Below, piece after piece: positions 26,949-50,309 of a DNA stretch of 64,000 nt. The DNA lies in assembly GCA_964427735.1 (NCBI GenBank), contig CAYRUS010000001.1, positions 537,373 to 601,372 of the forward strand, in the 5' to 3' direction. This stretch comes from an uncultured Gammaproteobacteria bacterium (GTDB lineage Bacteria; Patescibacteriota; Microgenomatia; UBA8517). The position numbers and the translations under genes were made by a program. A model generated the notes under the pieces. It saw only the letters and a program-made list of their open reading frames with translations. It was not told the origin of the DNA and did not search any database. Positions within the stretch are counted from its first letter, which is position 1, and each line of letters opens with the position of its first letter.

Positions 26949-28049
26949 ATGAAACTTCAGGTACTGCAAAGTAGTATGTCGAAAGTACTGCAAATAGCAG
27001 CAAGATTTGCAAGTACAAGAGCTCAATTACCAGTACTTAATAATATAAAGTTAGCTGCATATGCTAATAAAATAGAAGTATCTGCTACTAACCTTGAAAC
27101 CTCTATTAATATTACTTTAGGAGCAAAAGTTGAAGAAGAAGGAGAAATAACCATACCGGCTAAAACTATTGCCGATGTAGTTTCTAATTTAGGTGATAGA
27201 CAATTAACATTAATAGCAGAAAAGGAACAATTGAATATAAGCACAGATAATTTTTCTTCACGTATTGTTGGGATGAACACCTCAGATTTCCCGGATATTC
27301 CAAAAGAAACAGGAGAAAATCCGTTTAAAATAAATAGAGATGCATTGATAAAAGCATTGGATAAAGTTTTGTTTGCTACCTCTACAGACGAGACGAGGCC
27401 GCTTTTAACTGGAGTTTATTTTAATATTGGAACTAGTTTAACTCTAGTTGCAACTGATGGATTTCGCTTGTCTGAGAAAGTTACCGGAATAGACAATTCT
27501 AAAGAAAAAGAAGATATAATATTACCAAAAAATGTTTTGAGTGAATTAGGCAGATTGTCTTCTGGTGAAGAAACTATATTAATGAAATATGATAAAGATA
27601 ACTCTCAAGTTGTTTTTGGGGTTGGAAATATAGTTCTTGCTTCTAGAATTTTATCAGGAGAGTTTCCAGATTACAAAAAAAGAATTCCCGATAAAAGCAA
27701 AATAAGAGTGAATACAGATAAAATGGAAATAGTTAGAGCGATTAAGCTTGCTAGTGTTTTTGCTCGGGAGGGAGCCAATATTGTGAAACTTGGTGTTAAA
27801 GGGGGTAGTCTAGAGGTTTCTGCAGAGAGCAGTTCTGCAGGTAAGCAAGTCACTCAAATTGATGCTCAAGTGGAAGGGGGAGAACTTGAAATTGCATTTA
27901 ATTATAGATTTGTTGAAGAATTTCTAAATTCTATTGAGGGGGAGGATGTTTTGATTGAGTTAAATGACGCTGCTTCTCCCGGAGTGTTTAAAGACCCATC
28001 AGATAAAGATTATCTTCATTTAATCATGCCTCTGAAGCTTCAGGGTTGA
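26949..28049 (+). CDS. dnaN: DNA polymerase III beta sliding clamp
   Basis: 366 aa with three-domain clamp-like composition, immediately after dnaA. Confidence 0.9.
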   Translation: MKLQVLQSSMSKVLQIAARFASTRAQLPVLNNIKLAAYANKIEVSATNLETSINITLGAKVEEEGEITIPAKTIADVVSNLGDRQLTLIAEKEQLNISTDNFSSRIVGMNTSDFPDIPKETGENPFKINRDALIKALDKVLFATSTDETRPLLTGVYFNIGTSLTLVATDGFRLSEKVTGIDNSKEKEDIILPKNVLSELGRLSSGEETILMKYDKDNSQVVFGVGNIVLASRILSGEFPDYKKRIPDKSKIRVNTDKMEIVRAIKLASVFAREGANIVKLGVKGGSLEVSAESSSAGKQVTQIDAQVEGGELEIAFNYRFVEEFLNSIEGEDVLIELNDAASPGVFKDPSDKDYLHLIMPLKLQG

Positions 28050-29038
28050 GAGTAATCGATAGCAGGTAGATAAAATTCTGCTTGGATATTTTCACCATTG
28101 TTCATAAATGCATCACCTTTAAATAAGTAAATTGGTTGTAAATATCTTTGTTCCGAGCTTATTTCTTGCAAATAAGCAATTTCTATAGAATTCAATGTGA
28201 TTTTTCTGACTGAAGTATCAGTTACCTTTGTAGTATCAATCTTTCCATCATCAAGACTTACGATAGCTATGGTATTGATATTATCTGTTATTTGCTCAGC
28301 GCTTTTTAGTGGTCTATTTGAGCTAATCATAAATTCTGGTACTTCGTCAAAATATACTGAAACGACATCTAGTTCATTATTATATGTAATACTTATTGTT
28401 CCCGTTTCATAAGTTTCAGATATCACTTTATATCCATTAATTGACTTTGAATAAGTCAATACTATGGCTGTAGGAGGACCACTTCTTTCTATTCCCTCAA
28501 ATGGATTAATTCTTAAAGTTCGCATTTTTAGAAGGTCAATGTCATCAAGGTTGTCAATAAACCCATTTTCTACCAAATAATTTTTTGCAATTGAATCCAT
28601 TTCGCTCTGAACAGGAATCACACTCAATTCCGATGTAGGTATAACACCTGATCTATAATCAAAAATATTTTGTTTTGTAAGTACTCGTAGGCTTTTACCA
28701 CTATCGTTATAAAAATATGTAGGACCTAGGACTGGGTCTTCAACAATTTTTGGTTCAGTATTAAAACCTAAACTTAAAGTTATTTTATTTAATATATTTG
28801 ATTTAATTTCATTTTGAGTAATTTCATAAACAGGTAATGTCGAAGGGATTTGCAACCCTTCGAAGTTTATTGATATTTCAGTTTCAAACTCTCCTTGGAC
28901 TGATGTTTGTATTTCTGGCTTTGGTAAAGGCCTTTGAGGGACATTTTGTTGATTATTTCTATGTGTGAATAGAAATAGAAAACTAATCGAAATTACAAAA
29001 ATTATAATTGAAATTATTAACTTCTTTTTTATAGTCAT
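28040..29038 (-). CDS. hypothetical bitopic secreted/membrane-anchored protein (distal gene of the T4SS-like operon)
   Basis: 332 aa with an N-terminal TM (LIISIIIFVISISFLFLF) and an extracytoplasmic remainder. The start is 7 nt after the upstream gene. Confidence 0.5.
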   Translation of the reverse strand: MTIKKKLIISIIIFVISISFLFLFTHRNNQQNVPQRPLPKPEIQTSVQGEFETEISINFEGLQIPSTLPVYEITQNEIKSNILNKITLSLGFNTEPKIVEDPVLGPTYFYNDSGKSLRVLTKQNIFDYRSGVIPTSELSVIPVQSEMDSIAKNYLVENGFIDNLDDIDLLKMRTLRINPFEGIERSGPPTAIVLTYSKSINGYKVISETYETGTISITYNNELDVVSVYFDEVPEFMISSNRPLKSAEQITDNINTIAIVSLDDGKIDTTKVTDTSVRKITLNSIEIAYLQEISSEQRYLQPIYLFKGDAFMNNGENIQAEFYLPAIDYSQP

Positions 29039-29044
29039 GTCTTT

Positions 29045-32041
29045 TTATGGTATTGAAATTCCACAATTTCTAACACACTCTCTTGGTACCGTTACTGGTA
29101 CAAATGGTTGAACCATCTGTACTGGCGGGGGCCAAACTGTAGCTGGACCTCCGTTGTTATGGTCACCTAGTGCTCTAAATTCATAGTGATCATGTATATA
29201 GGTTGCTGTACCTGTATGACCCATTATACCTAAAATTGTACCTCTTGGTACAAAATCTCCCTGTTTTAGAGCAATCGAAAATGAACTAAAATGAACATGC
29301 CAGGTCATATAATCTGATCCACCACATTTTCCTGCAGTGCTAACATACAATCCCCCCCAGTTATCTACTGCTTGGTTTAATACAGTTCCATTATGAGTAG
29401 CGATTATATACGCATTATCTTGAGTTTCAGTAGTAAAAGGATCCCAGTGTACATCAATAGCTTCTCTTCTTTCGTGAGAGATAGTCCCTTCAGGACCTTG
29501 ATTAACAATATATTTTTGTCCTTCATTAGCAAGTACAGGCCATCCTACAGGGCAATCCGACGGAGGTTCTCCAATAATAATAGAAGCATATGATATTGCT
29601 TCTTCACCTTTAACTTCTTCTGTATCTGCAATTACACTAAAATTATCAGTCACAACAGAGTCTTCAAAGTTGTTATCAAAATTCACAGAATAAGAAAAAG
29701 AAAATGATTCACCATGGGTAAGAGTAGATGGTGGTTCTGGAATAGTAGGACTTGGTATTGGAGCTTTTAGTGGATCTTGTGTTATTACATATTCATTACC
29801 AAATTGAATATTCGTTAAACTACCTCTTTTGGCTGTAACTGTAATATTGTATGTGACCTCTATAGGTAGGTCACTGTTTTGTGCAATATTTATACTAGCT
29901 ACTTTTTCAATACCAATATATAAAGATTCTTTTACTATGCCGCTTGACGAACCCGCGTAAGTTAGATTTCTAGGAGAAGGGGGAATAACATAGGCTCCTG
30001 TGGTGATGATGTAGATGATAAAAGATACAACCAGTGTAAGTACGGTCAAGGCAATAAATGCTTGAATTAAAGCTTGAGCAATTTCTTTTCCAATTGCAGC
30101 TAAGCCTATAAAGAAAACCCCTGTAGCAGAGGCAATACTACCTGCTACAAAACCTCCATAAACAGCCAGTTGTCCAAAAGTATAAATAACAGCAATAGGG
30201 AGAAAAACTGTTGGTAGTAATACTACACCTGCTAGTAAACCGGCAGCTGTAGCAGCTTTATTTTTCCTCATCCATTGCAGAATTGAGCTTACTATTGGTA
30301 CTTTCTTTAAAAACTTATTTATTAATTTCACACCTTCATAGACAAGTGCGGCTGCCCAACCTATTCCGCCTGTCAATGCCCCTCCAGCAGCCTCTATTCC
30401 TAATCTTGTTGCTATGCCAGCTGCTGCTTTTTTGAATGCTGGTCCAACAATAGACGTAATCTTGCCTTTTAGAGGATTCAAATATCTGGCGATAAATCTG
30501 CTCGATACTTCACCGAATAATTGCCTTCCTAATCCTGTAAAAAAGTTTCCTCTAAATAAATCAGGATGTAAGGTTGCAGCATCGTTATTTGTTACAAATG
30601 ACCCCTCTGCTTGTGTAATTTTTTGCTCATGGACAAACCTTAAATATCTGCCTCTATATGCTGACTTAAAAATTCTGCTTAGTGCTGAATGTCTTTGCTC
30701 AATCAAACTCAAAATACTTCCGTAAGGAGCTATACTTTTAAGGTACTTATCATCTACTCCGTTTTTTCTTGCTTCAGCAATAAAAGCTGCAAGATTTTGA
30801 GGAGTAACACCTCTGGTCCATAAATGAAACGCAGATGTTTCGACAGGATTTTGTTTTGAGAATGCTAATGAACCGGCGTCAGCCAAAAATTGAAAACCTT
30901 TGGTAAAGGCAAGAGGAGCGGTTTTTCCCAGATTAAACCTAGCTGAATCTATAAATTCAAAACCTATTTGTTTTATAGCTTCCTCTTGTTCTTTTTTTAT
31001 TTTTTCTTCATCATTTTCATCTGGTACAACTTCACCAAGTAATTTACTTGCTGCTTCTTCAGCTGTATGTATTTCCTTTGCTATATTGGTATCTAATAAA
31101 GAAATACTGTCTTTGGTAAAAGTTGACGAAACGTTGAACTTAATATTAGGATCTCCTGCAATAGCTCTTGCTATGCTTGATCCGTCTCTTCCTCCTTTGA
31201 CTGTAATCCAAAATGTTCTTAATATTTTTTCTGCCAAAGTGGCAGAAGTAACTCCTCCAGAAAAAGCGATAGTATTATTTAGGTTTACACTAGCTTGTGA
31301 TAAATAACTTTGCACAAAATCGTCTTGAGAAAGGTTTGATGCATCAGAAATTAACTTGTTAATAACTGGTTCATAATCAGATCTTGGAGGAGGGAAGGGT
31401 ACTGCCATAGCAGGAACAAGATAGATTGGTGCTTCTTGAGGTTTAATTGCAGATTGTCTGCCTTCTGTTTTTTCAATAGATTCTATTAATTTTTCAGCTT
31501 CCTTTACTTGTTCACGAATTTCTTCAACTGGAATTGGTGGTTCTGCAGTAAATACAGGTTCTTTTATTTCATGACTTCTTTGCTCAGAGAGAGTTGCGAT
31601 CAATTTTGAGTTTTCTTTTAATTGGAATCTCCAATGCATAATATCGTCTGCAGAAGATCGTGTATCTTCAATTTTTCTCAGTAGCTCTATTCTTTCTTCT
31701 TCAAGTTTCAAAAGATCAGGAGGAATAGTCATTGCAGGATATTCGTCTGGTGTTTCTCCATTTATTAATTTTTCTAAATTCTCATAATATCTAAGAATTG
31801 TTTCAATCCAGACTTTTGGATCTGTATTTTTTGGAGTTTGTGTTAATACTGTTATTTCTGAAAGAAAATTAGCATAAGTAATTTGTTGCGTTTTTTCCCA
31901 GAGTTCTCTATTTTTAGGATCTTCATAAGACTCAGGTACATCTGTATAAACCCTGGTCACATCCGGGTAATAGTACTTTAGACCTTCTAAGAGTTTAAAT
32001 ATTTTGAAATATAAATTTTTGTAGTTGTTACTGGTTGCCAT
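29045..32041 (-). CDS. giant polytopic protein with an N-terminal coiled-coil region, central multi-TM region and a C-terminal M23 (LytM-type) peptidase domain
   Basis: 998 aa. TM helices lie around residues ~560-690. The C-terminus LGIMGHTGTATYIHDHYEF is the M23 G.TG.STG.HLHFE motif. It overlaps virB4 by 14 nt. Confidence 0.7.
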   Translation of the reverse strand: MATSNNYKNLYFKIFKLLEGLKYYYPDVTRVYTDVPESYEDPKNRELWEKTQQITYANFLSEITVLTQTPKNTDPKVWIETILRYYENLEKLINGETPDEYPAMTIPPDLLKLEEERIELLRKIEDTRSSADDIMHWRFQLKENSKLIATLSEQRSHEIKEPVFTAEPPIPVEEIREQVKEAEKLIESIEKTEGRQSAIKPQEAPIYLVPAMAVPFPPPRSDYEPVINKLISDASNLSQDDFVQSYLSQASVNLNNTIAFSGGVTSATLAEKILRTFWITVKGGRDGSSIARAIAGDPNIKFNVSSTFTKDSISLLDTNIAKEIHTAEEAASKLLGEVVPDENDEEKIKKEQEEAIKQIGFEFIDSARFNLGKTAPLAFTKGFQFLADAGSLAFSKQNPVETSAFHLWTRGVTPQNLAAFIAEARKNGVDDKYLKSIAPYGSILSLIEQRHSALSRIFKSAYRGRYLRFVHEQKITQAEGSFVTNNDAATLHPDLFRGNFFTGLGRQLFGEVSSRFIARYLNPLKGKITSIVGPAFKKAAAGIATRLGIEAAGGALTGGIGWAAALVYEGVKLINKFLKKVPIVSSILQWMRKNKAATAAGLLAGVVLLPTVFLPIAVIYTFGQLAVYGGFVAGSIASATGVFFIGLAAIGKEIAQALIQAFIALTVLTLVVSFIIYIITTGAYVIPPSPRNLTYAGSSSGIVKESLYIGIEKVASINIAQNSDLPIEVTYNITVTAKRGSLTNIQFGNEYVITQDPLKAPIPSPTIPEPPSTLTHGESFSFSYSVNFDNNFEDSVVTDNFSVIADTEEVKGEEAISYASIIIGEPPSDCPVGWPVLANEGQKYIVNQGPEGTISHERREAIDVHWDPFTTETQDNAYIIATHNGTVLNQAVDNWGGLYVSTAGKCGGSDYMTWHVHFSSFSIALKQGDFVPRGTILGIMGHTGTATYIHDHYEFRALGDHNNGGPATVWPPPVQMVQPFVPVTVPRECVRNCGISIP

Positions 32042-34457
32042 TTTGGTCGGTATTTAATAAAGCATTAATTTGATTTTGTAAGTCAGTTTCTTTTTGTTCT
32101 GGTGTTTTGTTTGGATTATTAGCTTGTCCAGGCAGAATCACCTCGTTTGTGCCTTGTTTTGGAGGCTGATTAAAAGCAGTTGCCTGCACAATACTCTCTT
32201 TGTTTATTGTATCTTGTATTGGGCTTTCTTTACCTTGATGTTTTTCCGGAGGTTCATTAGTGTTTGTTTGACTAACTGCAACAGTCTCTTGACCTCTGAC
32301 TCCTGTTTCCTCACCGTTGTCATTTGATTGGGTAGTTTGGCTATTTGGGGTTGGCGATTGATCGCTTTCTATTTCCATAAAAGCAGGTTTGATAAGTTCT
32401 TCGTTTTGTTGAGGTTGGTTTGTTTTATTATTGTCACCTATGTAACTAGGTTTTTCATTTCTTTTAGACATTTCACTCGGATTAGTTGTAATAAGTTCGT
32501 GCTCTACATCGCTTGCTACAATCCTAATAGGAGCATGGTGTGGACCTGCGAAAAATATTCCCTCTCCAACGTTTGCTGCAAGAAGCAATTGCTTTTCTCC
32601 TTGTGACAGATAAAAGATTTCGGCAATCCGATCAATTGCAGCAGGAGACTGCTTGAGCAAGAGTTTAAGAGAGGAATTAGTAACAATGGCTTTACCTATG
32701 TCCTGAGACAGAAAATCCTCCACATCCTGTGTAATAGTGGTCAATCCCAGCCAATACTTTCTAGCTCTTTTGACAACAGACCACAGAAATTGAGCAGAAT
32801 CTTCATATCGCATCATATGCCAAGCTTCATCAACAATTAACATTCGTTTTTTAAGGTCCCTTTGGACTCTTGTCCAGATAAAGTCAAGAATAACAAACAT
32901 GGCGATAGGTCTTAGTGCTTCTTGCATATCTTTTACACTAAAAACTGTAAACGGGTTAGAAAGGTCTATATTTGTATGTTTGTCAAATATTCCTACAAAA
33001 GATCCTTTGACAAACTTTTCAATTCTGGCTGCTAAATCTTGTGCTTCAGCAGTTTCCATACCAATCAAGGTTTTGTATAAATCTTCCATCAAAGGTGGTT
33101 CCTTTTTTTGAGTTTCAGGGTCTTGAGTAATTCCTTTTGACTTGTATGTAGCGATTAGCGCTCTATCGAGTAAAGCTTCTTGGGTTGGTGATAGTTGTCC
33201 CATGATAACTTTAAATAATGAGTGGAGAGATAAAATCTTTAAACCTAATTGATTTTCTCCTTCAACATAAACTTGAGATAAATCAAAAGGATTAATTTTT
33301 GATTCAGATGAAAATGAGAAAGAAATATATTCTCCACCTACTGAGTCTGAAAGGTCTTTATACTCAGCTTCGGGGTCAATAATTATAACTTCAGTTCCAA
33401 GCATCAGAGATCTTACTGATTCTAGTTTTACAAAATAGCTTTTACCTCCTCCGGATGTACCAAACACACTCATGTTCGAGTTTTCCATGCTATATCTGTC
33501 AAAAATTATAAAAGAGTCGTTTTGTGGATTTATTCCATAAAGTACACCTTTGTCATTTGACAATTCTGCTGTTGTAAATGGGAAAGTTGTAGCAAGTGAT
33601 GTTGTGTCCATATTTCTATTAACATAGAGTTTGTCTTGCCCCCAAGGGACTGTTGTAATAAATCCTCTTTCCTGATCAAGGGTTATGCTTTCTGCATCAA
33701 CAAGCAAGGATTGCAAAGTCGATTGCACTTGTTTTGTAATATGATTTAGCTCTTCGGGAGAATGGGCAGGAATAGTTATGTAAAGACCCATTTCAAAAAA
33801 ACCCTCTATTCCTTTTACAAGTTGCTCTTGAAGAGCTAATGCGTCTTCTAATTTTGCTTTGGTGGTTGGATTAACTATTTTACCTCTATCAATATCTGTT
33901 GATAATTCGGCTTCCATTTCTGTTATTTTTCTTCTCAAATCATCCAAAACTGTTTTGCCTTCAACAGGATAAATATAAAAAGATGTATTTAAAGAATGGT
34001 TAAAATTTATTAATGGCTCTAACCAGCCTGGATTAACAAAGCGTCTTCGAATATTTGTATAGAGTGTTCGATAGTATTTTTCATTTAATTTTACGTGATC
34101 AAAATCAGTCTCAAATTTTTGAGGAGCAATTACATCCAGAAGATGCATACCTTCTTTAATAGAAAGGATTGGTTTTATTACTTTAGGCTTTTCGTATTCT
34201 TTTATAGTTACTTTTTCCTCACTGTCTTGGGTAAATGCGTGCCTTACAGGTTCTGGAATTATTTTAGATAGAAGTCCTTTTTTTTCTAATTCCAAGTTTT
34301 GGGTGTTTTGTGTTGGTTGAAATTGACCCACCGGTTTGTTTACAGTTTGTCCTTGAAGTTGCGGTATATTTTCTGTTGTCTGTGGAATATTTGGCAGTAT
34401 AACTCCTTGGTTTGAACTCTGAATATTTTTATTTTTTTTGAATAGTGGTAAATCCAT
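32028..34457 (-). CDS. virB4: VirB4/TraE/PrgJ-family type IV secretion ATPase (central + ATPase domains) with an N-terminal Q/N/P-rich linker and a ~150-aa disordered Q/N-rich C-terminal extension
   Basis: Walker A VFGTSGGGKSYF and Walker B MLIVDEAWHMM. The central-domain pattern KYYRTLYT..PGWLEPLINF.. is VirB4-like. Confidence 0.85.
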   Translation of the reverse strand: MDLPLFKKNKNIQSSNQGVILPNIPQTTENIPQLQGQTVNKPVGQFQPTQNTQNLELEKKGLLSKIIPEPVRHAFTQDSEEKVTIKEYEKPKVIKPILSIKEGMHLLDVIAPQKFETDFDHVKLNEKYYRTLYTNIRRRFVNPGWLEPLINFNHSLNTSFYIYPVEGKTVLDDLRRKITEMEAELSTDIDRGKIVNPTTKAKLEDALALQEQLVKGIEGFFEMGLYITIPAHSPEELNHITKQVQSTLQSLLVDAESITLDQERGFITTVPWGQDKLYVNRNMDTTSLATTFPFTTAELSNDKGVLYGINPQNDSFIIFDRYSMENSNMSVFGTSGGGKSYFVKLESVRSLMLGTEVIIIDPEAEYKDLSDSVGGEYISFSFSSESKINPFDLSQVYVEGENQLGLKILSLHSLFKVIMGQLSPTQEALLDRALIATYKSKGITQDPETQKKEPPLMEDLYKTLIGMETAEAQDLAARIEKFVKGSFVGIFDKHTNIDLSNPFTVFSVKDMQEALRPIAMFVILDFIWTRVQRDLKKRMLIVDEAWHMMRYEDSAQFLWSVVKRARKYWLGLTTITQDVEDFLSQDIGKAIVTNSSLKLLLKQSPAAIDRIAEIFYLSQGEKQLLLAANVGEGIFFAGPHHAPIRIVASDVEHELITTNPSEMSKRNEKPSYIGDNNKTNQPQQNEELIKPAFMEIESDQSPTPNSQTTQSNDNGEETGVRGQETVAVSQTNTNEPPEKHQGKESPIQDTINKESIVQATAFNQPPKQGTNEVILPGQANNPNKTPEQKETDLQNQINALLNTDQNGNQ

Positions 34458-34458
34458 G

Positions 34459-36109: not shown

Positions 36110-36169
36110 AAATTTAATTCATAAGGCACAATGCACAATACATATTGATACAGTTTATAATGCATACAT

Positions 36170-43968: not shown

Positions 43969-44268
43969 TTATGGTAGTGTTATCTTGAACTCAGTTACAG
44001 GTGCTCCTGTCAAAGTTTCTATTAGCTGCATTATCAAAAAAGACATGATTACCAAAAATAGCCCACCAAGTGAATAGGTAATTGTTTTTTTAGCTGCTTC
44101 TGCTTGCTGAGGGTTTGTTCCTGAGGTCAAAAATTTTAATCCGCCGACAAGGAGCATTATGAAGGCTGCTATTGCACCAAAACCTAGTAAAACAGAAATG
44201 ATATTCCCAAAGATAATTTCAAGATCTTCTATTTTTGCCGGTTGGGCATTAGGAATCTTTGGATTCAT
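43969..44268 (-). CDS. VirB2/TrbC-like pilin candidate (paralogue 8)
   Basis: 99 aa. It has TM1 and a ..LTSGTNPQQAEAAKKTITYSLGGL.. loop, then TM2. It shares the S-x-G-D/N-P/K...A...I...L.G motif with the 45952-48482 array. Confidence 0.45.
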   Translation of the reverse strand: MNPKIPNAQPAKIEDLEIIFGNIISVLLGFGAIAAFIMLLVGGLKFLTSGTNPQQAEAAKKTITYSLGGLFLVIMSFLIMQLIETLTGAPVTEFKITLP

Positions 44269-44363: not shown

Positions 44364-45875
44364 ATGAAATCAAGTGATTTTTTAAGTAAATTGTCCCTGT
44401 TTAAATATAGTTTTACATTCGTTTTTTTCTTAATTGTAATTTTTTCAGTTTTTTTTATAAAAATTTATAACACAACAGACCCGGATTTTGGATGGCATTT
44501 AAGAACAGGGGAAATAATAATAAAAGAAGGTATACCAAAAACAGATCCGTTTTCATATACAATGCCAAATTTCCCTTATGTTGATCACGCTTGGCTTACA
44601 GATGTTTTTATCGTAGTCATTTATTCTTCGTTTGGAAAGTTAGGTTTAACAATCGTTTTTTCGTTATTAATGTTTGTTATATTGATTTTGGCTGTGACGC
44701 TATTTGGAAATTCAGGTTTGTACAATGCTGTTAGAAGCAGTGACAATATTAAACTCTTATCATACTTAATCTCTTTACTTTTGGGTTCGGCTGTTTTAGT
44801 TTACTATGCATCTGTTCGTACGCATCTCTTTAGTTGGTTGTTTTTTTTAATTGTAGCTAAGATCTTACTGAATAAAAGGATTTGGAATAAATACAAGTAT
44901 TTTATTCCAGTTGTTTTTTTATTGTGGGCAAACTTACATGGAGGATTTTTAGCTGGATTTCTTCTTGTAGGAATTTGTTTAGTTGTTAATTTTATTTATG
45001 ATAGGAATGCTTTTAAAGAGTTATTAATATTGTTTGTTGCTTCAATATTGTTTACTTTATTAAATCCTTATTTTATTGATTTATGGCGCGAGGTGCTAAC
45101 TACTGTAGCAGATAATGATTTAAAGAAATATATAGCAGAATGGAAATCTTTAGTTTTTACACCAATTCTTAGTTTTGGTGCCCTTTTCGGTCTGACTGTC
45201 GGTTTTTTAAGCAAATATAGTAAACAAATAGAAGTGTCTCCAATTATTTTATTTTTGGTTTTTACGATATTGGCTATTTCATCTGTAAAAAATTTACCGT
45301 TTTGGGTTGTAATTACTATGCCTATTTTAGTAACTTGCCTAAACTATTTAGTGCTTGAGATTGAACAAGTCAAATATGCAAAAAAAAGATTGTTATACTT
45401 TTTAAACATTCTGCTTGTGATATCTTTGGTTGTGTTTTTACTTGAAACCAAAATTGCTTTAAATCGAATAAAACAGATAAGCATTACCAAACATACTCAG
45501 GAGGTTGGTTTTATTGATTTTTTAAAAACTAGGAACAGTCAGGGAAATATATTTAATGAATATGGTCTTGGGGGCTATCTTATTTGGAAGTACCCAGAAA
45601 AAAGAGTGTTTATTGATGGAAGAATGGCCATTTGGGAAATGCAAGATTCAACACATAATTATGAAAGCGATGCTTTTGATAAATATATTAATATTATAAA
45701 AGGGAAAGTAGACTACAAAGAAGCTTTTGAAAAATATGATATTGATACTGTTGTTTGGATAAACAAGAAGTATACTTCATCGGATCCGAAGCAATTGTTT
45801 ATTGAGAAATTAATAAAAGATGGATGGTTATTAGTATACGAAGATAATTATGTGATTATTTACTCAAAGCAATGA
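44364..45875 (+). CDS. polytopic membrane protein, GT-C-like (possible glycosyl/oligosaccharyl transferase)
   Basis: 503 aa with at least 10 TM helices. The first extracytoplasmic loop is DPDFGWHLRTGEIIIKEGIPKTDPFSY (Asp/Glu-rich, as in GT-C first loops). It is flanked on both sides by pilin-like genes. Confidence 0.35.
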   Translation: MKSSDFLSKLSLFKYSFTFVFFLIVIFSVFFIKIYNTTDPDFGWHLRTGEIIIKEGIPKTDPFSYTMPNFPYVDHAWLTDVFIVVIYSSFGKLGLTIVFSLLMFVILILAVTLFGNSGLYNAVRSSDNIKLLSYLISLLLGSAVLVYYASVRTHLFSWLFFLIVAKILLNKRIWNKYKYFIPVVFLLWANLHGGFLAGFLLVGICLVVNFIYDRNAFKELLILFVASILFTLLNPYFIDLWREVLTTVADNDLKKYIAEWKSLVFTPILSFGALFGLTVGFLSKYSKQIEVSPIILFLVFTILAISSVKNLPFWVVITMPILVTCLNYLVLEIEQVKYAKKRLLYFLNILLVISLVVFLLETKIALNRIKQISITKHTQEVGFIDFLKTRNSQGNIFNEYGLGGYLIWKYPEKRVFIDGRMAIWEMQDSTHNYESDAFDKYINIIKGKVDYKEAFEKYDIDTVVWINKKYTSSDPKQLFIEKLIKDGWLLVYEDNYVIIYSKQ

Positions 45876-45951: not shown

Positions 45952-46338
45952 TTATATAGAAGGGAGATTTAGATCTAATATATTTATATGGAAGAATGTG
46001 TTTATTAAACTTACAATTGCATAAGCAGAGAAAACTATAACAAGTCCAATGAGTGCTGATGTTATCTGACTTCTAGCACCTTCCATTTTACCTTTGTCTC
46101 CAGCTGAAAGAATCCATCTGATACCTCCAACAACAAGCATAACGAAGAAAATAACTGCTGCTAAAATAAATAGTATAGTAACAATAGTACTTACTATACC
46201 AGTTGCTTCAAAACCTACAAGATTGGTGAAAGTGCTATCATCGTCAGGTCTAAGAGTTACATCTGATTGAGCTTTTGCAACAGGAACCAAAAAGAAAGCA
46301 TTTGTAATTGCTACATTAATTTTGTCTGTTAATTTCAT
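45952..46338 (-). CDS. VirB2/TrbC-like pilin candidate (paralogue 1 of tandem array)
   Basis: 128 aa, two hydrophobic segments separated by the ..LSAGDKGKMEGARSQITSALIGL.. loop. Confidence 0.45.
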   Translation of the reverse strand: MKLTDKINVAITNAFFLVPVAKAQSDVTLRPDDDSTFTNLVGFEATGIVSTIVTILFILAAVIFFVMLVVGGIRWILSAGDKGKMEGARSQITSALIGLVIVFSAYAIVSLINTFFHINILDLNLPSI

Positions 46339-46350
46339 ATTAATAATTTA

Positions 46351-46683
46351 TTATTGAATTCTTAAGGCACCTATGTCAAGTACTAAAATATCAATGCCAA
46401 AAAGTGTTTCGACTAAGGATATTATAGCATAAACTGAAAAAAGAGCAATAACCCCTATAATTGCATGTGTAATTGTTTTTTGGGCTGATTCTAGTTTCAT
46501 TTTATCTCCACTTGAAGATATCCATCCAATAGCTCCTTTTACAAACATAAAAAAGAAAACTATAGACCCTGCTATAAATGCTAAAGTTATAAATGTGGAT
46601 ATCATTCTATCAATATACTTAACACCGGGTTCAAATCTAACACTAGGGTCAAGCAAAGGATTTTGTAAAACAAACATTGTCAT
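46351..46683 (-). CDS. VirB2/TrbC-like pilin candidate (paralogue 2)
   Basis: 110 aa with the ..SSSGDKMKLESAQKTITHAIIGV.. loop. Confidence 0.45.
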   Translation of the reverse strand: MTMFVLQNPLLDPSVRFEPGVKYIDRMISTFITLAFIAGSIVFFFMFVKGAIGWISSSGDKMKLESAQKTITHAIIGVIALFSVYAIISLVETLFGIDILVLDIGALRIQ

Positions 46684-46692
46684 ATATTTATA

Positions 46693-47061
46693 TTATCTTA
46701 GATTTCTAATTGCTGGTGCAAGATCAAGAATGTACGGTATACCAATTAGCTCACCTACGAGATCAAGAATAAATGTTGCCAGTATAACTACTAATAAGCC
46801 AATTAAAGCTGTGGATATATTTTTCCATGCGTTTGCTACTTGTTGTTTGTCTCCACTAGAAGAAATTAAAGCGTATGCTCCGGTGATTAATTTGAAAACA
46901 AACCATATAATGGCAACAATTGTAAGTACGCCAATAGCTAAAGTTAATGTCTGCTCAAAAATAGTAGGTGCTTGTGGAAATAGTTTTCCTTCTAAACCTA
47001 GCGGGCCCTCTCCTCGAAACCCTCCGGGTGGGTGAATGTTTATTTGTGCAAGTTTGTTCAT
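46693..47061 (-). CDS. VirB2/TrbC-like pilin candidate (paralogue 3)
   Basis: 122 aa with an MNKLAQIN leader and the ..SSSGDKQQVANAWKNISTALIGL.. loop. Confidence 0.45.
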   Translation of the reverse strand: MNKLAQINIHPPGGFRGEGPLGLEGKLFPQAPTIFEQTLTLAIGVLTIVAIIWFVFKLITGAYALISSSGDKQQVANAWKNISTALIGLLVVILATFILDLVGELIGIPYILDLAPAIRNLR

Positions 47062-47062
47062 A

Positions 47063-47395
47063 TTAGATAGTTGGGATTACCGGTGTTAACAAAGCATCGT
47101 AATCTCCAAAAATAAGTCTTCCAAAAAGTGCTGCAAGTACAAATGATCCTGCGACTACAGTTAGTCCTAGTGCAGTCTGCCAGATTTTTGCCCAGGCCCC
47201 TGCTACTTTTTTAGGATCATCTCCAGCTGATAAAAAGGCATATCCTGCAAAAATGAAATTAAATAAAGCATAAATACTGGCAACAACTATTAAAGTCTGT
47301 ACCATAATATTTAATAATATTCCAATTGCACCACCTTGGATTGAACCAAATCGGGCTAGAGGAGTAGGTACAGGTATATTTCCAAAAACATTCAT
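47063..47395 (-). CDS. VirB2/TrbC-like pilin candidate (paralogue 4)
   Basis: 110 aa with the ..LSAGDDPKKVAGAWAKIWQTALGL.. loop. Confidence 0.45.
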   Translation of the reverse strand: MNVFGNIPVPTPLARFGSIQGGAIGILLNIMVQTLIVVASIYALFNFIFAGYAFLSAGDDPKKVAGAWAKIWQTALGLTVVAGSFVLAALFGRLIFGDYDALLTPVIPTI

Positions 47396-47396
47396 A

Positions 47397-47750
47397 TTAA
47401 ATTCCTGGTGCAGTTATAAAATTAACACCTATTATTATTTCTATTATGCGGATAATCCAAAAAGCTGTAAATACCAGAAAAAATCCGATTACGGCATAAG
47501 TCATAGTTGCCTTGCCTTTGGCTGCTCGTTGCGGATCTTGGTTTCCAGCACCCATAATTATACTTAACCCACCAAAAATAAACAAGAAAAAGACTATAAC
47601 TCCTGATATTACTAAGGCAGATTGAACTATAATTCCTACAATTTCTCCAATTCCATAAGTAAGACCAGGTCCTCTGGCAATACCTCTTGGTCCTGCACCG
47701 ACTCTAAAAAATTTATCACCAATATCAAAAGCAACAGCAATCTTGTTCAT
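47397..47750 (-). CDS. VirB2/TrbC-like pilin candidate (paralogue 5)
   Basis: 117 aa with an MNKIA leader and the ..MGAGNQDPQRAAKGKATMTYAVIGF.. loop. Confidence 0.45.
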   Translation of the reverse strand: MNKIAVAFDIGDKFFRVGAGPRGIARGPGLTYGIGEIVGIIVQSALVISGVIVFFLFIFGGLSIIMGAGNQDPQRAAKGKATMTYAVIGFFLVFTAFWIIRIIEIIIGVNFITAPGI

Positions 47751-47752
47751 TT

Positions 47753-48088
47753 TTAAAAGATACTTATAATCGAATCTATCTTAAATACTATTCCTATAAT
47801 CTGAATTATCCAATATGCCGCAAAAACCACTAAAAATCCCAAACCCGCGTTTTTTATTTTGGTTTGAGCCATTTGTACTTTTTTTGGATCACCTGCTGAT
47901 GTCATTAATTGAAAACCTGCAGAGAGAAGAAACAGAAGAAGGATAATCCCCGCTGTAGCAAAGATATATGGAAGAAGTGCAGCAATGATTCCAGCAATAT
48001 TGAGAGAGTTGTCAATTGTAATCTTTCCACCGCCAACGTGGTCAGTTCTATAAATCAGGTCAAAGTTAATCTGTGCTAGCTTGTTCAT
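47753..48088 (-). CDS. VirB2/TrbC-like pilin candidate (paralogue 6)
   Basis: 111 aa with an MNKLAQIN leader and the ..TSAGDPKKVQMAQTKIKNAGLGF.. loop. Confidence 0.45.
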   Translation of the reverse strand: MNKLAQINFDLIYRTDHVGGGKITIDNSLNIAGIIAALLPYIFATAGIILLLFLLSAGFQLMTSAGDPKKVQMAQTKIKNAGLGFLVVFAAYWIIQIIGIVFKIDSIISIF

Positions 48089-48092
48089 ATTA

Positions 48093-48482
48093 TTATCCCA
48101 ATGGTATTCCTAGGATATTTACACCTAGGTATTGTAAAACAAAAACACTAAAAATAAGAAGTAAAAGTCCTGAAATTGCAGAAAACAAAAGTTCTTGTCC
48201 TGCTCTAAGCCTATCTGGAACACCTTGGGATGTAGTAATCATAATTCCTGCATAGACTATTAATATAAAAGCTATTCCACCAGCAATACCGACAGCCCAA
48301 CGAAAGACCCAAACAATAAATGTATCTGTTCCTGCTAGTACAGGTATACAACCTATTGCTGTATCAATGCCAGTATCGCCACCACCAGGGGTAATCGGGG
48401 GATTACATAATTGTGCAAAAACAGGCAAGGGAAAGCTTAAAAAACTTAATATAATAGCAAGTACAAAAAAAGTTTTTCTCAT
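48093..48482 (-). CDS. VirB2/TrbC-like pilin candidate (paralogue 7, most divergent; signal peptide + Cys-containing N-region)
   Basis: 129 aa with an N-terminal signal (FVLAIILSFLSFPLPVFA) and the ..TTSQGVPDRLRAGQELLFSAISGL.. loop. Confidence 0.4.
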   Translation of the reverse strand: MRKTFFVLAIILSFLSFPLPVFAQLCNPPITPGGGDTGIDTAIGCIPVLAGTDTFIVWVFRWAVGIAGGIAFILIVYAGIMITTSQGVPDRLRAGQELLFSAISGLLLLIFSVFVLQYLGVNILGIPLG

Positions 48483-48536
48483 AAAATAAGTTTATCACAG
48501 AGCAAACAGAGTAGTATAGCAAACTGAGCTACAAAT

Positions 48537-50309
48537 ATGAAATTAACTTGGTATAATGTGTTTGCCTTTACTTGGATAAATAAACTGCCAATGGGTTTAA
48601 TAGCCAAAATTCAAAAAAGTACAACCAATAAGTCTAAATTATTATTTATCTTAATATTTTTGACAATTGGTGCTTGGGTATTACAGACGCGAGTGATTGC
48701 AAGTCATTGTTCCTCAACAGATTATGATTGTCAGATTTCTGAAATTCAGAAAGAAATTGATGCATTAACACCTGCTCATGAACAAAATAAAAAAGAATTA
48801 GATAGCACCAACAAGCAAGTCACATCAATAAATGCACGAATATCAGGAATAGATAATGATCTCAAGCTCTTAGAAGAAGATATAAAAAGGAGGGAAAAAG
48901 AGCTAGGTTATGCTACAGAAGTATTTAACTCCAAGGCAGACAGCCACTATCGTTTGTTAAGACTATACGATCCTTTGATTCCATTCTTGTCTTCCAATGA
49001 TGCGAGTGAGGCTTTTATTCAAATTAATATTCGCTCAAGAACAATTGATGATAACCGTAAAACGATGGAGAAGTATGTAGATGAAATTCTTTCGTTAAAT
49101 AAAGATAAAGAATCATTAAAATCAAACCAAGAAAATTTAGCATCTTTAAAATCAAAAATGGCAGGCAGAGCTGAATTTTTGGAGGGAGAAGTAGAAAAAG
49201 TTGAAAGTTACTTAACAACTTTATCATCTAAACAACAAGAGTTAGCTGCACTAAAGGCCGCTGGGTTTCAAACGTCAATTGGTGATACTCCACCTACACT
49301 TGAACCATGTTCAGGACCTCCAGGGTCAAGTAATTTTTGTGATCCAGGCTTTAGACCAGCATTTGCAGCATTTTCTTTTGGTGCTCCTCATAGAACAGGA
49401 ATGAGTCAGTATGGAGCATATGGGCGGTCAAAATCAGGACAATCAGCAGAACAGATTTTAGCAGCTTATTACCAAGGAGGAGAATTAAACAAAGGCTATC
49501 CAGTCCCTGCTACTATAAACGTGAGCGGGTATGGTGCAATTTCCTTTGAAGAAAATTATCTAATGGGAATTCACGAAGTTCCAGAGAGTTGGGGCAATAA
49601 TGGAGGTTTTGAAGCTTTAAAGGCGCAAGCAGTAGCAGCTAGGAGCTATGCTTTAGCGGTCACAAATAATGGAGCAGGTACAATTTGCCCTACGGAAAGT
49701 TGTCAGGTATACAAACCAACTCTAAAAAGTGGTAAATGGGCAGAAGCTGTTCGAGCAACAAGAGGTTGGGTAATAACAAAAGGTGGAAAACCTGCTTCAA
49801 CATATTATGCATCTACTTCAGGTGGATATACAGTTTCTCAGTGGGGTTGGAGTGGAATAAAAGACGCAGCAGGAGATTGGCCAGGAACAGCCTATGAAAA
49901 AATATCAGGTTCCCCATGGTTTTATAAAGGTTGGTACAAAAGCAGAGGTGGAGCCACATGCGGTAAAAGCCATCCTTGGCTTACTTCAAAAGAAATGGCT
50001 GATATATTGAATGCGAGACATGTATTGGATGGTAAAGGTGGAGATGCAGGAAGAATTTCACCTGTTGATACAGGATGTTGGGGAGGAAATCCTTACTCTA
50101 TGGATGAACTTGCCTCAATTGGAGGTTACACTTCAGTATCTTCTGTGTCTGTTGTTTATGGTAATGACGGTTCTACTCAATCGGTTACCTTCTCAACAAA
50201 CAAAGGCAGTGTTAACATTTCTGGAGGTGCACTAAAAGAAGCCTTTAATCTACGAGCACCAGGGTATATAGGTATAAAAAGTTCTCTTTTCAATATTGAA
50301 AAAATTTAA
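48537..50309 (+). CDS. SpoIID/LytB-domain protein (lytic transglycosylase/amidase enhancer) with an N-terminal TM and coiled-coil
   Basis: 590 aa. GMSQYGAYGRSKSGQSAEQILAAYYQG is the SpoIID signature. An N-terminal TM plus ~200-aa coiled coil precede it. Confidence 0.7.
   Translation: MKLTWYNVFAFTWINKLPMGLIAKIQKSTTNKSKLLFILIFLTIGAWVLQTRVIASHCSSTDYDCQISEIQKEIDALTPAHEQNKKELDSTNKQVTSINARISGIDNDLKLLEEDIKRREKELGYATEVFNSKADSHYRLLRLYDPLIPFLSSNDASEAFIQINIRSRTIDDNRKTMEKYVDEILSLNKDKESLKSNQENLASLKSKMAGRAEFLEGEVEKVESYLTTLSSKQQELAALKAAGFQTSIGDTPPTLEPCSGPPGSSNFCDPGFRPAFAAFSFGAPHRTGMSQYGAYGRSKSGQSAEQILAAYYQGGELNKGYPVPATINVSGYGAISFEENYLMGIHEVPESWGNNGGFEALKAQAVAARSYALAVTNNGAGTICPTESCQVYKPTLKSGKWAEAVRATRGWVITKGGKPASTYYASTSGGYTVSQWGWSGIKDAAGDWPGTAYEKISGSPWFYKGWYKSRGGATCGKSHPWLTSKEMADILNARHVLDGKGGDAGRISPVDTGCWGGNPYSMDELASIGGYTSVSSVSVVYGNDGSTQSVTFSTNKGSVNISGGALKEAFNLRAPGYIGIKSSLFNIEKI

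What the first reader, a model, noticed from the sequence alone, without database searches (positions are those of the whole stretch)
28040..50309. T4SS/conjugation-like envelope-spanning machine lacking recognisable VirD4, VirB11 and relaxase
Three co-oriented gene blocks make up the locus. Block 1 (36109 down to 28040) holds the VirB3/PrgI-like gene, the VirB4 N-domain ORF, VirB4, a 998-aa polytopic M23-peptidase protein and a bitopic protein. Stop/start overlaps link these genes. Block 2 (43850 down to 39142) holds the SLT-domain VirB1-like gene, a bitopic gene and the VirB6-like gene. Block 3 holds eight VirB2-like paralogues with a SpoIID-domain gene transcribed divergently. The gene set resembles a Gram-positive-type 'minimal' T4SS (VirB1/3/4/6 + pilin + cell-wall hydrolases). 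No coupling ATPase, VirB11 or relaxase is visible within 64 kb. This argues for a dedicated pilus, DNA-uptake or host-contact apparatus rather than a self-transmissible element. In an ultra-small, probably epibiotic CPR-type cell this is a prime candidate for the host-interaction or DNA-acquisition organelle. Its composition is poorly characterised: multiple pilins, a giant M23 protein, and a VirB4 with Q/N-rich tails.
Basis: partly seen in the sequence, partly recalled or inferred. Interest (0 to 1): 0.75.

Follow-up and report, generated by a model that had tools for sequence, protein, structure and literature searches.

The report
Patescibacterial chromosomal type IV secretion locus
This is a real but already-described machine: the chromosomal, non-conjugative type IV secretion system with multiple pilin genes that nearly all Patescibacteria (CPR bacteria) carry, here next to the replication origin in a Woesebacteria-like genome; its function is still unknown.

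Summary
Window 28040-48482 (minus strand) encodes PrgI/VirB3, a split VirB4 N-domain (TrsD-like), VirB4, a polytopic M23 peptidase, two bitopic proteins, a VirB6-like polytopic protein, an SLT-type lysozyme protein and eight VirB2-like pilins. No coupling ATPase, VirB11 or relaxase lies in the window, nor in about 9 kb further left or 3.9 kb further right.

The locus starts about 1.3 kb from oriC and abuts dnaN. The order pilins-SLT-VirB6like-PrgI-TrsD-VirB4-hydrolase-dnaN-dnaA recurs across related Microgenomatia genomes, so it is vertically inherited core equipment and not an ICE.

Wang et al. 2023 (Cell) showed by Tn-seq that the Saccharibacteria version is essential. Quinonero-Coronel et al. 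2025 (Microb Genom) catalogued the system in 2,407 Patescibacteria assemblies. That catalogue covers TrsD, PrgI, pilin arrays, missing relaxase and dnaA/dnaN proximity.

Small additions here:
- Weak fold evidence that the 555-aa protein is the "missing" Microgenomatia VirB6.
- Gene order collinear with pCF10 prgH-I-J-K-L.
- Swappable hydrolase heads on the post-VirB4 protein.

The parts
35132..36109 (-). PrgI/VirB3-like membrane protein. It has two N-terminal TM helices, a Pro-rich linker and a C-terminal CarboxypepD_reg-like beta-sandwich.
   Evidence: PF12666 at 6.7e-5 in the window protein. All 56 orthologues hit PF12666 and 50 of 56 hit PF13620. TM segments fall at about residues 26-71.
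34459..35127 (-). TrsD-like protein, a free-standing VirB4 N-terminal domain.
   Evidence: NCBIfam hits: VirB4_plasma positions 103-280 (1.9e-7), TrsD NF041427 (1.1e-6) and CD1110 positions 26-119. The VirB4 ORF itself starts at CD1110 position 182. The gene is present beside virB4 in 70 of 80 related loci.
32028..34457 (-). VirB4 ATPase (809 aa) with a conserved core at about residues 90-663. The N- and C-terminal Q/N/P-rich tails are lineage-specific.
   Evidence: conju_CD1110 at 390 bits against a cutoff of 325. PDB 4ag5 VirB4 at 3e-46. More than 7,400 homologues, with about 75% identity over about 71% of the query and typical lengths of 590-660 aa. Walker A GTSGGGKS and Walker B MLIVDEAW.
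29045..32041 (-). 998-aa protein. It has a poorly conserved N-terminal region of about 590 aa, a TM bundle at 595-689, a conserved extracellular region and a C-terminal M23 (LytM-type) peptidase. It occupies the position that PrgK holds in pCF10.
   Evidence: PF01551 at 38 bits against 28.7. PDB TagE, ShyA, lysostaphin and LytM. TM segments. Orthologues carry either the M23 head or an HExxH-containing head. The start overlaps the VirB4 stop by 14 nt.
28040..29038 (-). 332-aa bitopic protein (N-terminal TM, alpha+beta ectodomain). It occupies the position of PrgL, the VirB8-like protein of pCF10. Its fold is unresolved.
   Evidence: One TM segment at residues 1-28. The family has 892 representatives of about 330 aa. 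No Pfam or PDB relationship was found. The AF2 model was unusable at pLDDT 41. pCF10 gene order.
39142..40809 (-). 555-aa polytopic protein with long hydrophobic helices, the candidate VirB6 equivalent. In most relatives it lies directly upstream of PrgI.
40872..41393 (-). 173-aa bitopic protein of unknown role, lying between the SLT gene and the VirB6-like gene.
   Evidence: One TM segment at residues 6-28. No family hit. BLAST-detectable in only 3 related loci, at the same position.
41406..43850 (-). 814-aa secreted or anchored Cys-rich protein with a C-terminal SLT-type lysozyme domain, VirB1-like in function.
   Evidence: SLT_3 at 1.5e-4, below the gathering score. Motif CNKESSG...GLFQIN. 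The N-terminal 650 aa are conserved in 14 orthologues with invariant Cys. Those orthologues show a different C-terminal motif and do not hit SLT_3.
43969..44268 (-). VirB2-like pilin paralogue 1 (99 aa).
   Evidence: PF18895 at 6.4e-9. Two hydrophobic helices.
45952..48482 (-). Tandem array of seven VirB2-like pilin paralogues: 45952-46338, 46351-46683, 46693-47061, 47063-47395, 47397-47750, 47753-48088 and 48093-48482. Spacers are 1 to 12 nt.
   Evidence: Six of the seven hit PF18895. All eight pilins in the locus align, with two TM helices and an S-x-G-D-x-x-K/R loop. Mean pairwise identity is 24% and the maximum is 43%.
48537..50309 (+). SpoIID-domain protein with an N-terminal TM helix and coiled coil, divergent from the pilin array. 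It is adjacent, and its functional link to the system was not tested.
   Evidence: PF08486 at 5e-14. The related loci fetched do not reach this position, so its conservation could not be checked.
36170..39134 (.). Interruption of the array, probably not part of the machine. It holds a 124-aa four-helix-bundle protein (36170-36544, minus strand, PF05635) and a 793-aa soluble protein of unknown function (36753-39134, plus strand).
   Evidence: PF05635 at 1.6e-21. The 793-aa protein has no Pfam, NCBIfam, PHROG or PDB hit. It is found in only 1 of 80 related loci, and the small gene in 5.
44364..45875 (+). 503-aa polytopic membrane protein lying between pilin genes. Whether it belongs to the system is unknown.
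   Evidence: At least 9 hydrophobic segments. No family hit. Found at the same place in L015 and L018, where it is co-oriented with the T4SS genes.
25137..26761 (.). Context: oriC/dnaA region. DnaA-box clusters flank dnaA, and dnaN (26949-28049) converges on the last T4SS gene with a 10-nt overlap.
   Evidence: All three perfect TTATCCACA boxes in the window lie at 25137, 25182 and 26540. Five one-mismatch boxes lie at 26616-26761. The cumulative GC-skew minimum falls at 22-26 kb. dnaA and dnaN Pfam hits.

Best explanation
The locus is the chromosomal, vertically inherited 'Patescibacteria-clade' type IV secretion system in its Microgenomatia (Woesebacteria-like) form. This system derives from the monoderm (MPF-FATA) conjugation machinery and no longer has its DNA-processing parts.

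Shown here:
- The machine's genes form a tightly packed minus-strand array, split only by lineage-specific insertions. It encodes PrgI/VirB3, a split VirB4 (TrsD-like N-domain plus ATPase with intact Walker motifs), a polytopic VirB6-like protein, two bitopic proteins, two large envelope proteins carrying M23 and SLT peptidoglycan-hydrolase heads, and eight divergent VirB2-like pilins.
- It abuts oriC.
- The arrangement is conserved across related genomes.
- No coupling protein or relaxase is present nearby.

Inferred from what is established for other T4SSs:
- VirB4, docked on PrgI/VirB3 and the VirB6-like platform, extracts pilins from the membrane and polymerises them. F-type systems do this with VirB4 as their only pilus ATPase.
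- The hydrolases open the epibiont's own wall, and possibly the host's.
- The resulting pilus or tube connects the ultra-small cell to its host.

I consider it a host-contact conduit for macromolecules and not a conjugation device. On direction of transport I favour uptake of host material (nucleic acids), at about 0.4. Effector export stands at about 0.3 and adhesion only at about 0.2. This last step is inference only.
For: Identity:
- Component profiles.
- VirB4 scores best against the Gram-positive CD1110 model (390 bits) and the mycoplasma ICE model (262 bits). F-type (169 bits) and VirB4/CagE (100 bits) score far lower.
- The nearest homologues are Woesebacteria and other Patescibacteria, at about 75% identity.
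- The gene order B6like-PrgI-(TrsD)-VirB4-hydrolase-bitopic is collinear with pCF10 prgH-I-J-K-L.

Core status, not mobile:
- Among 80 related loci, TrsD lies beside virB4 in 70, PrgI in 66 and dnaN/dnaA in 59.
- oriC boxes lie about 1.3 kb away.
- There is no GC anomaly.
- Housekeeping genes flank the locus inside the window and for about 9 kb beyond its left end. The roughly 3.9 kb recovered beyond the right end holds only small unannotated ORFs, one with a phage-related domain.
- No VirD4, relaxase or VirB11 was found.

Literature:
- The same system is essential for epibiotic growth of S. epibionticum, where it also has essential pilins and lacks relaxase and coupling protein (PMC10633639).
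- The phylum-wide survey matches every feature seen here (PMC12102498).
- Tubular structures that may be T4SS pili were seen at a parasite-host interface, together with host-RNA feeding (bioRxiv 10.64898/2026.06.21.733656).
- comEC is dispensable in S. epibionticum, so another uptake route is needed.
Against: - There is no experimental evidence for any Microgenomatia member, and no evidence on direction of transport in any Patescibacterium. One review calls the role 'completely unknown' (PMC11665869).
- No VirB8-like protein could be demonstrated.
- VirD4-like proteins are reported far from virB4 in most Patescibacteria genomes. The rest of this roughly 760-kb genome could not be searched, so a distant coupling protein is not excluded.
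- Import by a VirB4-only monoderm T4SS has no worked-out precedent.
Confidence: 0.8

Rival explanations
1. A conventional integrative conjugative element, or a decaying remnant of one, whose VirD4, relaxase and oriT module lies outside the window.
For: VirB4 belongs to a conjugative family, CD1110. The gene order mirrors pCF10. VirD4-like genes exist elsewhere in many Patescibacteria genomes.
Against: - The arrangement beside dnaN, dnaA and oriC is conserved in 59 of 80 related genomes.
- The VirB4 core is about 75% identical across the class, which indicates strong purifying selection.
- No integrase, GC shift or direct-repeat boundaries were found.
- Housekeeping genes flank the locus within the window and about 9 kb further left. 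The 3.9 kb recovered further right holds only small unannotated ORFs, with no VirD4 or relaxase.
- Relaxases occur in only 103 of 3,035 Patescibacteria genomes.
Confidence: 0.03
2. A contact-dependent effector translocator that exports proteins into or onto the host bacterium. The pilins would serve as the needle or adhesin, and the variable hydrolase heads would be host-directed.
For: - Wang et al. suggest protein export because the DNA-processing parts are missing.
- T4SSs without a coupling protein do export proteins, as in the Ptl and Brucella systems.
- The post-VirB4 protein carries interchangeable M23 or HExxH heads, and the SLT protein's C-terminus also varies. Such variation is typical of host-facing modules.
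Against: No candidate effectors or secretion signals were identified. No coupling protein is present to recruit cytoplasmic substrates. The hydrolase heads can be explained equally well as tools for opening the cell's own wall.
Confidence: 0.3
3. An attachment-only organelle: VirB2-type pili act purely as adhesins with antigenic or host-range variation, and no substrate passes through.
For: There are eight divergent pilins with 24% mean identity. This resembles the Bartonella and Anaplasma VirB2 paralogue arrays, which are thought to vary surface interactions.
Against: Patescibacteria already use type IV pili for adhesion and motility. Keeping a full VirB3/4/6 translocon next to oriC in a genome under 1 Mb suggests more than adhesion.
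Confidence: 0.2

Closest known systems
Patescibacteria-clade T4SS (S. epibionticum SEML1_0006-0019, Wang et al. 2023, PMC10633639; phylum survey, Quinonero-Coronel et al. 2025, PMC12102498)
   Same: VirB4 plus adjacent TrsD, PrgI/VirB3, a VirB6 candidate, an array of divergent VirB2-like pilins, and M23/lysozyme genes next to virB4. No relaxase and no nearby coupling protein. Chromosomal position next to dnaA/dnaN. Pilin arrays are typical of Microgenomatia, and the 24% mean pilin identity here compares with 25% reported.
   Different: Only details differ:
- The 809-aa VirB4 has long low-complexity tails.
- The array is split by a 793-aa gene of unknown function and by a 503-aa membrane-protein gene.
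- The survey reported VirB6 homologues as scarce in Microgenomatia. Here a conserved 555-aa candidate has weak fold support.
pCF10 Prg/Pcf conjugation system of Enterococcus faecalis (MPF-FATA prototype)
   Same: VirB4 of the CD1110 family and a PrgI-family protein. The gene order is collinear: polytopic protein, PrgI, VirB4, membrane-anchored wall hydrolase, bitopic protein, matching prgH-I-J-K-L.
   Different: The window has no PcfC (VirD4), PcfG relaxase, PrgB adhesin or oriT. The VirB4 N-domain is split off, as in pGO1 TrsD. VirB2-like pilins are present, which Gram-positive conjugation systems lack. The locus is chromosomal and vertically inherited.
T4SS-derived DNA-uptake systems: Helicobacter pylori ComB and archaeal Ced
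   Same: These systems are built around a VirB4-type ATPase and membrane components, without a relaxase (from general knowledge). The window VirB4 weakly matches CedB (4.6e-12).
   Different: ComB is a diderm system with VirB7-10 and works together with ComEC. Ced uses unrelated membrane proteins. Import has not been shown for any Patescibacteria T4SS. The similarity is functional analogy only.
VirB2 paralogue arrays of Bartonella and Anaplasma T4SSs
   Same: Tandem, strongly diverged VirB2 genes within a T4SS locus.
   Different: Those are diderm effector-translocating systems with a full VirB/VirD4 set. There the arrays are interpreted as antigenic or host-range variation towards eukaryotic hosts.

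Membership tests
Patescibacteria-clade T4SS (PMC12102498) | VirB4 of the Patescibacteria clade nested in MPF-FATA | tested here: met
   The CD1110 model is passed at 390 bits against a cutoff of 325. All named close homologues are Woesebacteria, Microgenomates or other Patescibacteria. No explicit tree was built.
Patescibacteria-clade T4SS (PMC12102498) | TrsD-like protein encoded next to virB4 | tested here: met
   The 222-aa ORF matches TrsD and VirB4 N-terminal model positions. It is adjacent to virB4 in 70 of 80 loci.
Patescibacteria-clade T4SS (PMC12102498) | PrgI/VirB3 homologue near virB4 | tested here: met
   All 56 orthologues hit PF12666. The window copy scores 23.8 bits, below the gathering score of 27.
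Patescibacteria-clade T4SS (PMC12102498) | VirB6 homologue | tested here: inconclusive
Patescibacteria-clade T4SS (PMC12102498) | VirB2-like pilin genes, often in arrays of 2 to 11 | tested here: met
   Eight paralogues are present. Seven hit PF18895 and all align with one another.
Patescibacteria-clade T4SS (PMC12102498) | No relaxase and no coupling protein in the virB4 neighbourhood | tested here: met
   None was found in 64 kb, nor in about 13 kb of additional flank. The rest of the genome was not searchable.
Patescibacteria-clade T4SS (PMC12102498) | Chromosomal position near dnaA/dnaN (Microgenomatia, Paceibacteria) | tested here: met
   The last T4SS gene overlaps the dnaN stop. DnaA boxes lie at 25137-26761. 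The arrangement recurs in 59 of 80 loci.
Conjugative MPF-FATA T4SS / ICE | Type IV coupling protein (VirD4/TcpA family) | tested here: not met
   No Pfam hit. phmmer with pCF10 PcfC found nothing. VirB4 is the only T4SS P-loop ATPase.
Conjugative MPF-FATA T4SS / ICE | Relaxase and oriT | tested here: not met
   No relaxase family hit, and no match to PcfG or MobC. oriT cannot be tested without a relaxase model.
Conjugative MPF-FATA T4SS / ICE | Mobile-element boundaries (integrase, att repeats, compositional shift) | tested here: not met
   No integrase. No flanking direct repeats. GC is 0.30-0.38 across the locus, the same range as the rest of the window (0.32-0.38).
VirB8/PrgL/TcpC-type bitopic T4SS component (for the 332-aa and 173-aa proteins) | N-terminal TM helix plus NTF2-like ectodomain | tested here: inconclusive
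   A single TM helix is confirmed. AF2 with 3 sequences gave pLDDT 41, which is unusable. A 68-sequence profile found nothing in PDB or Pfam. The position after the hydrolase matches prgL.
Type IV pilus / competence pseudopilus system | PilB/PilT ATPases, PilC platform, prepilin peptidase, class III signal-peptide pilins | tested here: not met
   None of these families was hit. The pilins belong to the VirB2-type PF18895 family.

The most novel reading that the evidence does not exclude
The system is a feeding tube. The VirB2-type pilus, assembled by the split VirB4 on a VirB3/VirB6-like platform, would breach the host envelope using the interchangeable hydrolase heads. Those heads are the M23 or HExxH domain on the post-VirB4 protein and the variable lysozyme domain on the 814-aa protein, and they would be matched to the host's wall chemistry. 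The tube would import host nucleic acids (RNA or DNA) without any coupling protein. That would make this a new functional class of T4SS, one that supplies nucleotides to cells that cannot make them.
Probability: 0.2. Interest if true: 0.8.

Novelty: already known. Interest (0 to 1): 0.28.

Why it matters
The system as a class matters. It is present in about 80% of Patescibacteria genomes and is essential in the one species tested. It is the leading candidate for how these ultra-small epibionts exploit their hosts, and its substrate is still unknown.

This particular locus adds no new kind of system. It is a clean, complete, origin-proximal Microgenomatia example. Its value is as a reference locus:
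- It offers a candidate for the VirB6 that profile searches miss in this class.
- It offers a large conserved family (892 representatives) as a candidate VirB8-position protein.
- It shows that the wall-hydrolase heads are modular.

Tried and rejected
- hhalign of the 555-aa and PrgI family profiles against single pCF10 PrgH and PrgI sequences. This was uninformative. The positive control failed, since the PrgI profile did not find pCF10 PrgI, so the negative for PrgH carries no weight.
- BLASTP of the 998-aa protein against PrgK found no similarity. The correspondence between them is positional only.
- AF2 of the 332-aa bitopic protein from a 3-sequence alignment gave pLDDT 41. No fold search was run on it. 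The deeper family found later could not be submitted for structure prediction.
- Profile searches of that family against PDB and Pfam gave only chance-level hits, such as YycI at 0.003 in 2 of 68 members.
- PHROGs on ten unassigned proteins gave nothing.
- The promoter and terminator scan gave counts equal to the shuffled controls, so it says nothing about operon structure.
- DGR hypothesis for the Avd-like PF05635 gene: no template/variable repeat pair exists in the window. Rejected.
- A Walker-A-like motif (ARFNLGKT) in the 998-aa protein raised the idea of a hidden ATPase or coupling protein. The motif is not conserved in orthologues. Rejected.
- A J-domain was found in one orthologue (L013) of the post-VirB4 protein. 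It is absent from the window protein and from the 16 other orthologues, so it is sporadic.
- Rfam found only tmRNA and tRNAs, with nothing inside the locus.

Full report
**Observation**

They run on the minus strand in this order:
- PrgI-like, 35132-36109
- a 222-aa ORF, 34459-35127
- VirB4, 32028-34457
- a 998-aa polytopic protein, 29045-32041
- a 332-aa bitopic protein, 28040-29038

Further upstream on the same strand lie an 814-aa protein (41406-43850), a 173-aa bitopic protein (40872-41393), a 555-aa polytopic protein (39142-40809) and eight small two-helix proteins (43969-44268 and 45952-48482). A SpoIID-domain gene (48537-50309) diverges from the last pilin gene. Only VirB4 and the 998-aa gene truly overlap, by 14 nt.

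**Component identities**

*VirB4.* It passes NCBIfam's curated cutoff for the Gram-positive 'CD1110' VirB4 family, at 390 bits against 325. It scores progressively lower on mycoplasma ICE (262), F-type TraC (169), VirB4/CagE (100) and archaeal CedB (45). Its best solved relative is the Thermoanaerobacter VirB4 C-domain, 4ag5, at 3e-46. Walker A (GTSGGGKS) and Walker B (MLIVDEAW) are intact.

*The 222-aa ORF.* The CD1110 match in VirB4 begins at model position 182. The missing N-terminal part is supplied by the 222-aa ORF, which matches CD1110 positions 26-119, the mycoplasma VirB4 model at 103-280, and TrsD.

*PrgI.* The window copy is sub-threshold (23.8 against 27 bits). All 56 orthologues I collected hit PF12666. 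Fifty of them also carry a C-terminal CarboxypepD_reg-like beta-sandwich.

*Hydrolases.* The M23 domain is above threshold and matches TagE, ShyA, lysostaphin and LytM in the PDB. The SLT assignment is sub-threshold but carries the ES...GLFQIN signature.

*Pilins.* Seven of the eight pilins hit PF18895. All eight align, with two hydrophobic helices and a conserved loop. Mean identity is 24% and the maximum is 43%.

*The 555-aa 'VirB6-like' protein.* This is the weakest assignment.
- It has no Pfam, NCBIfam or PDB sequence hit, for itself or for its orthologues.
- An AlphaFold2 model from 87 sequences (pLDDT 76, pTM 0.67) shows the long hydrophobic helices typical of VirB6.
- Foldseek against the PDB puts R388 TrwI/VirB6 chains at ranks 1, 2, 4, 6, 8, 10 and 13, but with non-significant scores (best E 0.49, TM 0.41 on the target).
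- DotA is itself described as structurally VirB6-like.
- UniRef names an orthologue 'Type IV secretion system protein'.

Together with its position directly upstream of PrgI in relatives, I regard the VirB6 role as likely but not demonstrated.

**Context**

On the left, the locus is bounded by rnpA, yidC, jag, dnaA and dnaN. On the right lie smpB, tmRNA, tRNAs, dnaG and rpoD. All three perfect DnaA boxes in the window flank dnaA, and five near-perfect boxes lie in the dnaA-dnaN spacer. The cumulative GC skew turns at 22-26 kb. The machine therefore starts about 1.3 kb from oriC, and its last gene overlaps the convergent dnaN by 10 nt.

No ORF in the window matches VirD4, VirB11 or a relaxase. 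pCF10 PcfC and PcfG find nothing, and DnaA and VirB4 are the only real P-loop ATPases. I extended the sequence through identical contigs:
- About 9 kb to the left adds GroES/EL, HSP20, an M23 protein, UbiA and an MraY-like gene.
- About 3.9 kb to the right adds small unannotated genes, one with a phage-related domain.

**Relatives**

VirB4 has more than 7,400 homologues. The best are about 75% identical over the core (residues about 90-663), and the named ones are Candidatus Woesebacteria or Patescibacteria. Typical lengths are 590-660 aa, so the Q/N/P-rich tails of the 809-aa window protein are lineage-specific.

I collected 80 loci from species-representative genomes. They include complete Woesebacteria chromosomes of 0.8-0.9 Mb. 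In these loci the order pilins, SLT protein, (173-aa protein), VirB6-like, PrgI, TrsD, VirB4, hydrolase protein, (332-aa protein), dnaN, dnaA, rnpA, yidC recurs:

| Gene beside virB4 | Loci out of 80 |
|---|---|
| TrsD | 70 |
| PrgI | 66 |
| dnaN and dnaA | 59 |
| VirB6-like | 31 |

The VirB6-like count is at BLAST 1e-5. The small PF05635 gene next to it occurs in five. The 503-aa membrane-protein gene that separates the first pilin from the other seven occurs in two. The three blocks are therefore one ancestral array with insertions. This pattern, together with the uniform GC content and the absence of an integrase or boundary repeats, argues strongly against a mobile element.

**Comparison with the literature**

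The system is already described.
- Wang et al. 2023 (PMC10633639) found by Tn-seq that the T4SS cluster SEML1_0006-0019 of Southlakia epibionticum is essential during co-culture. It resembles Gram-positive conjugative T4SSs, carries essential pilin genes, and lacks recognisable coupling and relaxase proteins.
- Quinonero-Coronel et al. 2025 (PMC12102498) surveyed 3,035 Patescibacteria genomes. They report a monophyletic VirB4 clade nested in MPF-FATA, found in 2,407 assemblies, with TrsD, PrgI/VirB3, VirB6 and VirB2-like proteins nearby.
- The same survey reports 441 pilin arrays of 2 to 11 genes, especially in Microgenomatia and Saccharimonadia, with an average identity of 25%. It reports M23 and lysozyme partners and relaxases in only 103 genomes. 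It also reports coupling-protein homologues mostly far from virB4, and proximity to dnaA/dnaN/rnpA in Microgenomatia and Paceibacteria.
- The 2025 FEMS review (PMC12857230) lists the system as a new member of the T4SS superfamily.
- A 2024 perspective calls its role 'completely unknown' (PMC11665869).
- A 2026 preprint reports tubular structures that may be T4SS pili at a parasite-host interface, in an organism that feeds on host RNA.

**What this analysis adds**

1. The core gene order is collinear with pCF10 prgH-prgI-prgJ-prgK-prgL. This gives positional assignments: the 555-aa protein corresponds to PrgH/VirB6, the 998-aa protein to PrgK (a membrane-anchored wall hydrolase), and the 332-aa bitopic protein to PrgL (VirB8-like).
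2. The survey noted that VirB6 homologues are scarce in Microgenomatia. The conserved 555-aa family, with 893 homologues at E<=1e-5, is a candidate with weak fold support.
3. The 332-aa family is large, with 892 cluster representatives of uniform length, but it has no detectable relationship to any known family. My structure prediction from three sequences failed.
4. The protein downstream of VirB4 has a conserved TM and extracellular core but interchangeable C-terminal heads. Eight genomes carry an M23 head and eight carry an HExxH-containing domain. Its N-terminal roughly 590 residues are poorly conserved. The C-terminal lysozyme-like domain of the 814-aa protein also differs between the window and its relatives.

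**Mechanism**

Shown: the parts list, their conservation, the intact ATPase motifs, and the absence of DNA-processing genes nearby.

Inferred from established T4SS biology:
- VirB4, anchored by VirB3/PrgI, drives pilin extraction and pilus polymerisation. F-type systems do this without VirB11, so the missing VirB11 is unremarkable.
- The VirB6-like protein forms the membrane platform.
- The M23, SLT and perhaps SpoIID enzymes open the peptidoglycan.

Speculative: what passes through. I favour uptake of host macromolecules, for four reasons. The locus lacks a coupling protein. The known relaxase-free T4SS derivatives (ComB, Ced) are importers. These cells cannot make nucleotides. And comEC is dispensable in S. 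epibionticum. Effector export and pure adhesion remain serious alternatives.

**Verdict**

The finding is a typical member of an already published system. Interest is therefore low to moderate, and it resides in the open question of function and not in this locus.

Noticed in passing
window 25137-26761 and 28040-48482: The whole T4SS array is transcribed towards oriC. It is head-on to replication and convergent with dnaN, with a 10-nt overlap. The same orientation holds in 51 of the 59 related loci that carry dnaN/dnaA. The published idea of an origin-proximal dosage benefit does not address this head-on orientation.
   Followed up: partly
window 36753-39134 (+): A 793-aa soluble protein with internal repeats and no hit in Pfam, NCBIfam, PHROGs or PDB sequences. 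It is inserted between the VirB6-like gene and PrgI and is shared only with locus L008 (OZ246419.1).
   Followed up: partly
window 36170-36544 (-): A PF05635 '23S rRNA intervening sequence' four-helix-bundle protein sits between the VirB6-like gene and PrgI. I recall this as the family of DGR Avd proteins, from memory and not checked here. It occupies the same spot in five related loci. No DGR template/variable repeat pair or reverse transcriptase is present in the window.
   Followed up: partly
window 29045-32041 and orthologues in L002-L080: The post-VirB4 polytopic protein carries alternative C-terminal heads, either M23 or an HExxH-containing domain, on a conserved core. One orthologue (L013:11832-14702) also has a J-domain with an HPD motif at residues 154-208 of its N-terminal region. 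The window protein does not.
   Followed up: partly
window 35132-36109: PrgI/VirB3 is fused through a long Pro-rich linker to a CarboxypepD_reg-like beta-sandwich in 50 of 56 orthologues. Which side of the membrane this domain faces was not determined.
   Followed up: no
window 44364-45875 (+): A 503-aa membrane protein with many TM segments lies between pilin genes. Orthologues in L015 and L018 sit at the same place but on the T4SS strand, which implies a local inversion. It might be a GT-C-type glycosyltransferase, which is a guess and was not tested.
   Followed up: no
loci L004, L005, L008, L011 and many others: Many species-representative MAG records that carry this Woesebacteria-type locus are titled 'uncultured Gammaproteobacteria' or 'uncultured Pseudomonadales'. 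Their gene content is clearly patescibacterial, so the record titles are wrong.
   Followed up: no
window 3021-5849: An EcoRI-family adenine methyltransferase (3748-4860, PF13651 at 1.5e-137) is flanked by two unassigned ORFs (3021-3746 and 4965-5849). One of them may be the cognate endonuclease.
   Followed up: no
window 36115-36156 and 56055-56096: A 42-nt stretch just upstream of the PrgI start is 74% identical to a stretch between tRNA-Arg and tRNA-Ser. It could be a shared promoter-like element or chance.
   Followed up: no
window 16409-19213 (-) and 51481-53364 (+): Two large proteins of unknown role lie near the locus: a 934-aa DUF4012 protein and a 627-aa protein with no family hit. 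The latter follows a bPH_2/DUF5657 gene pair downstream of the SpoIID gene.
   Followed up: no
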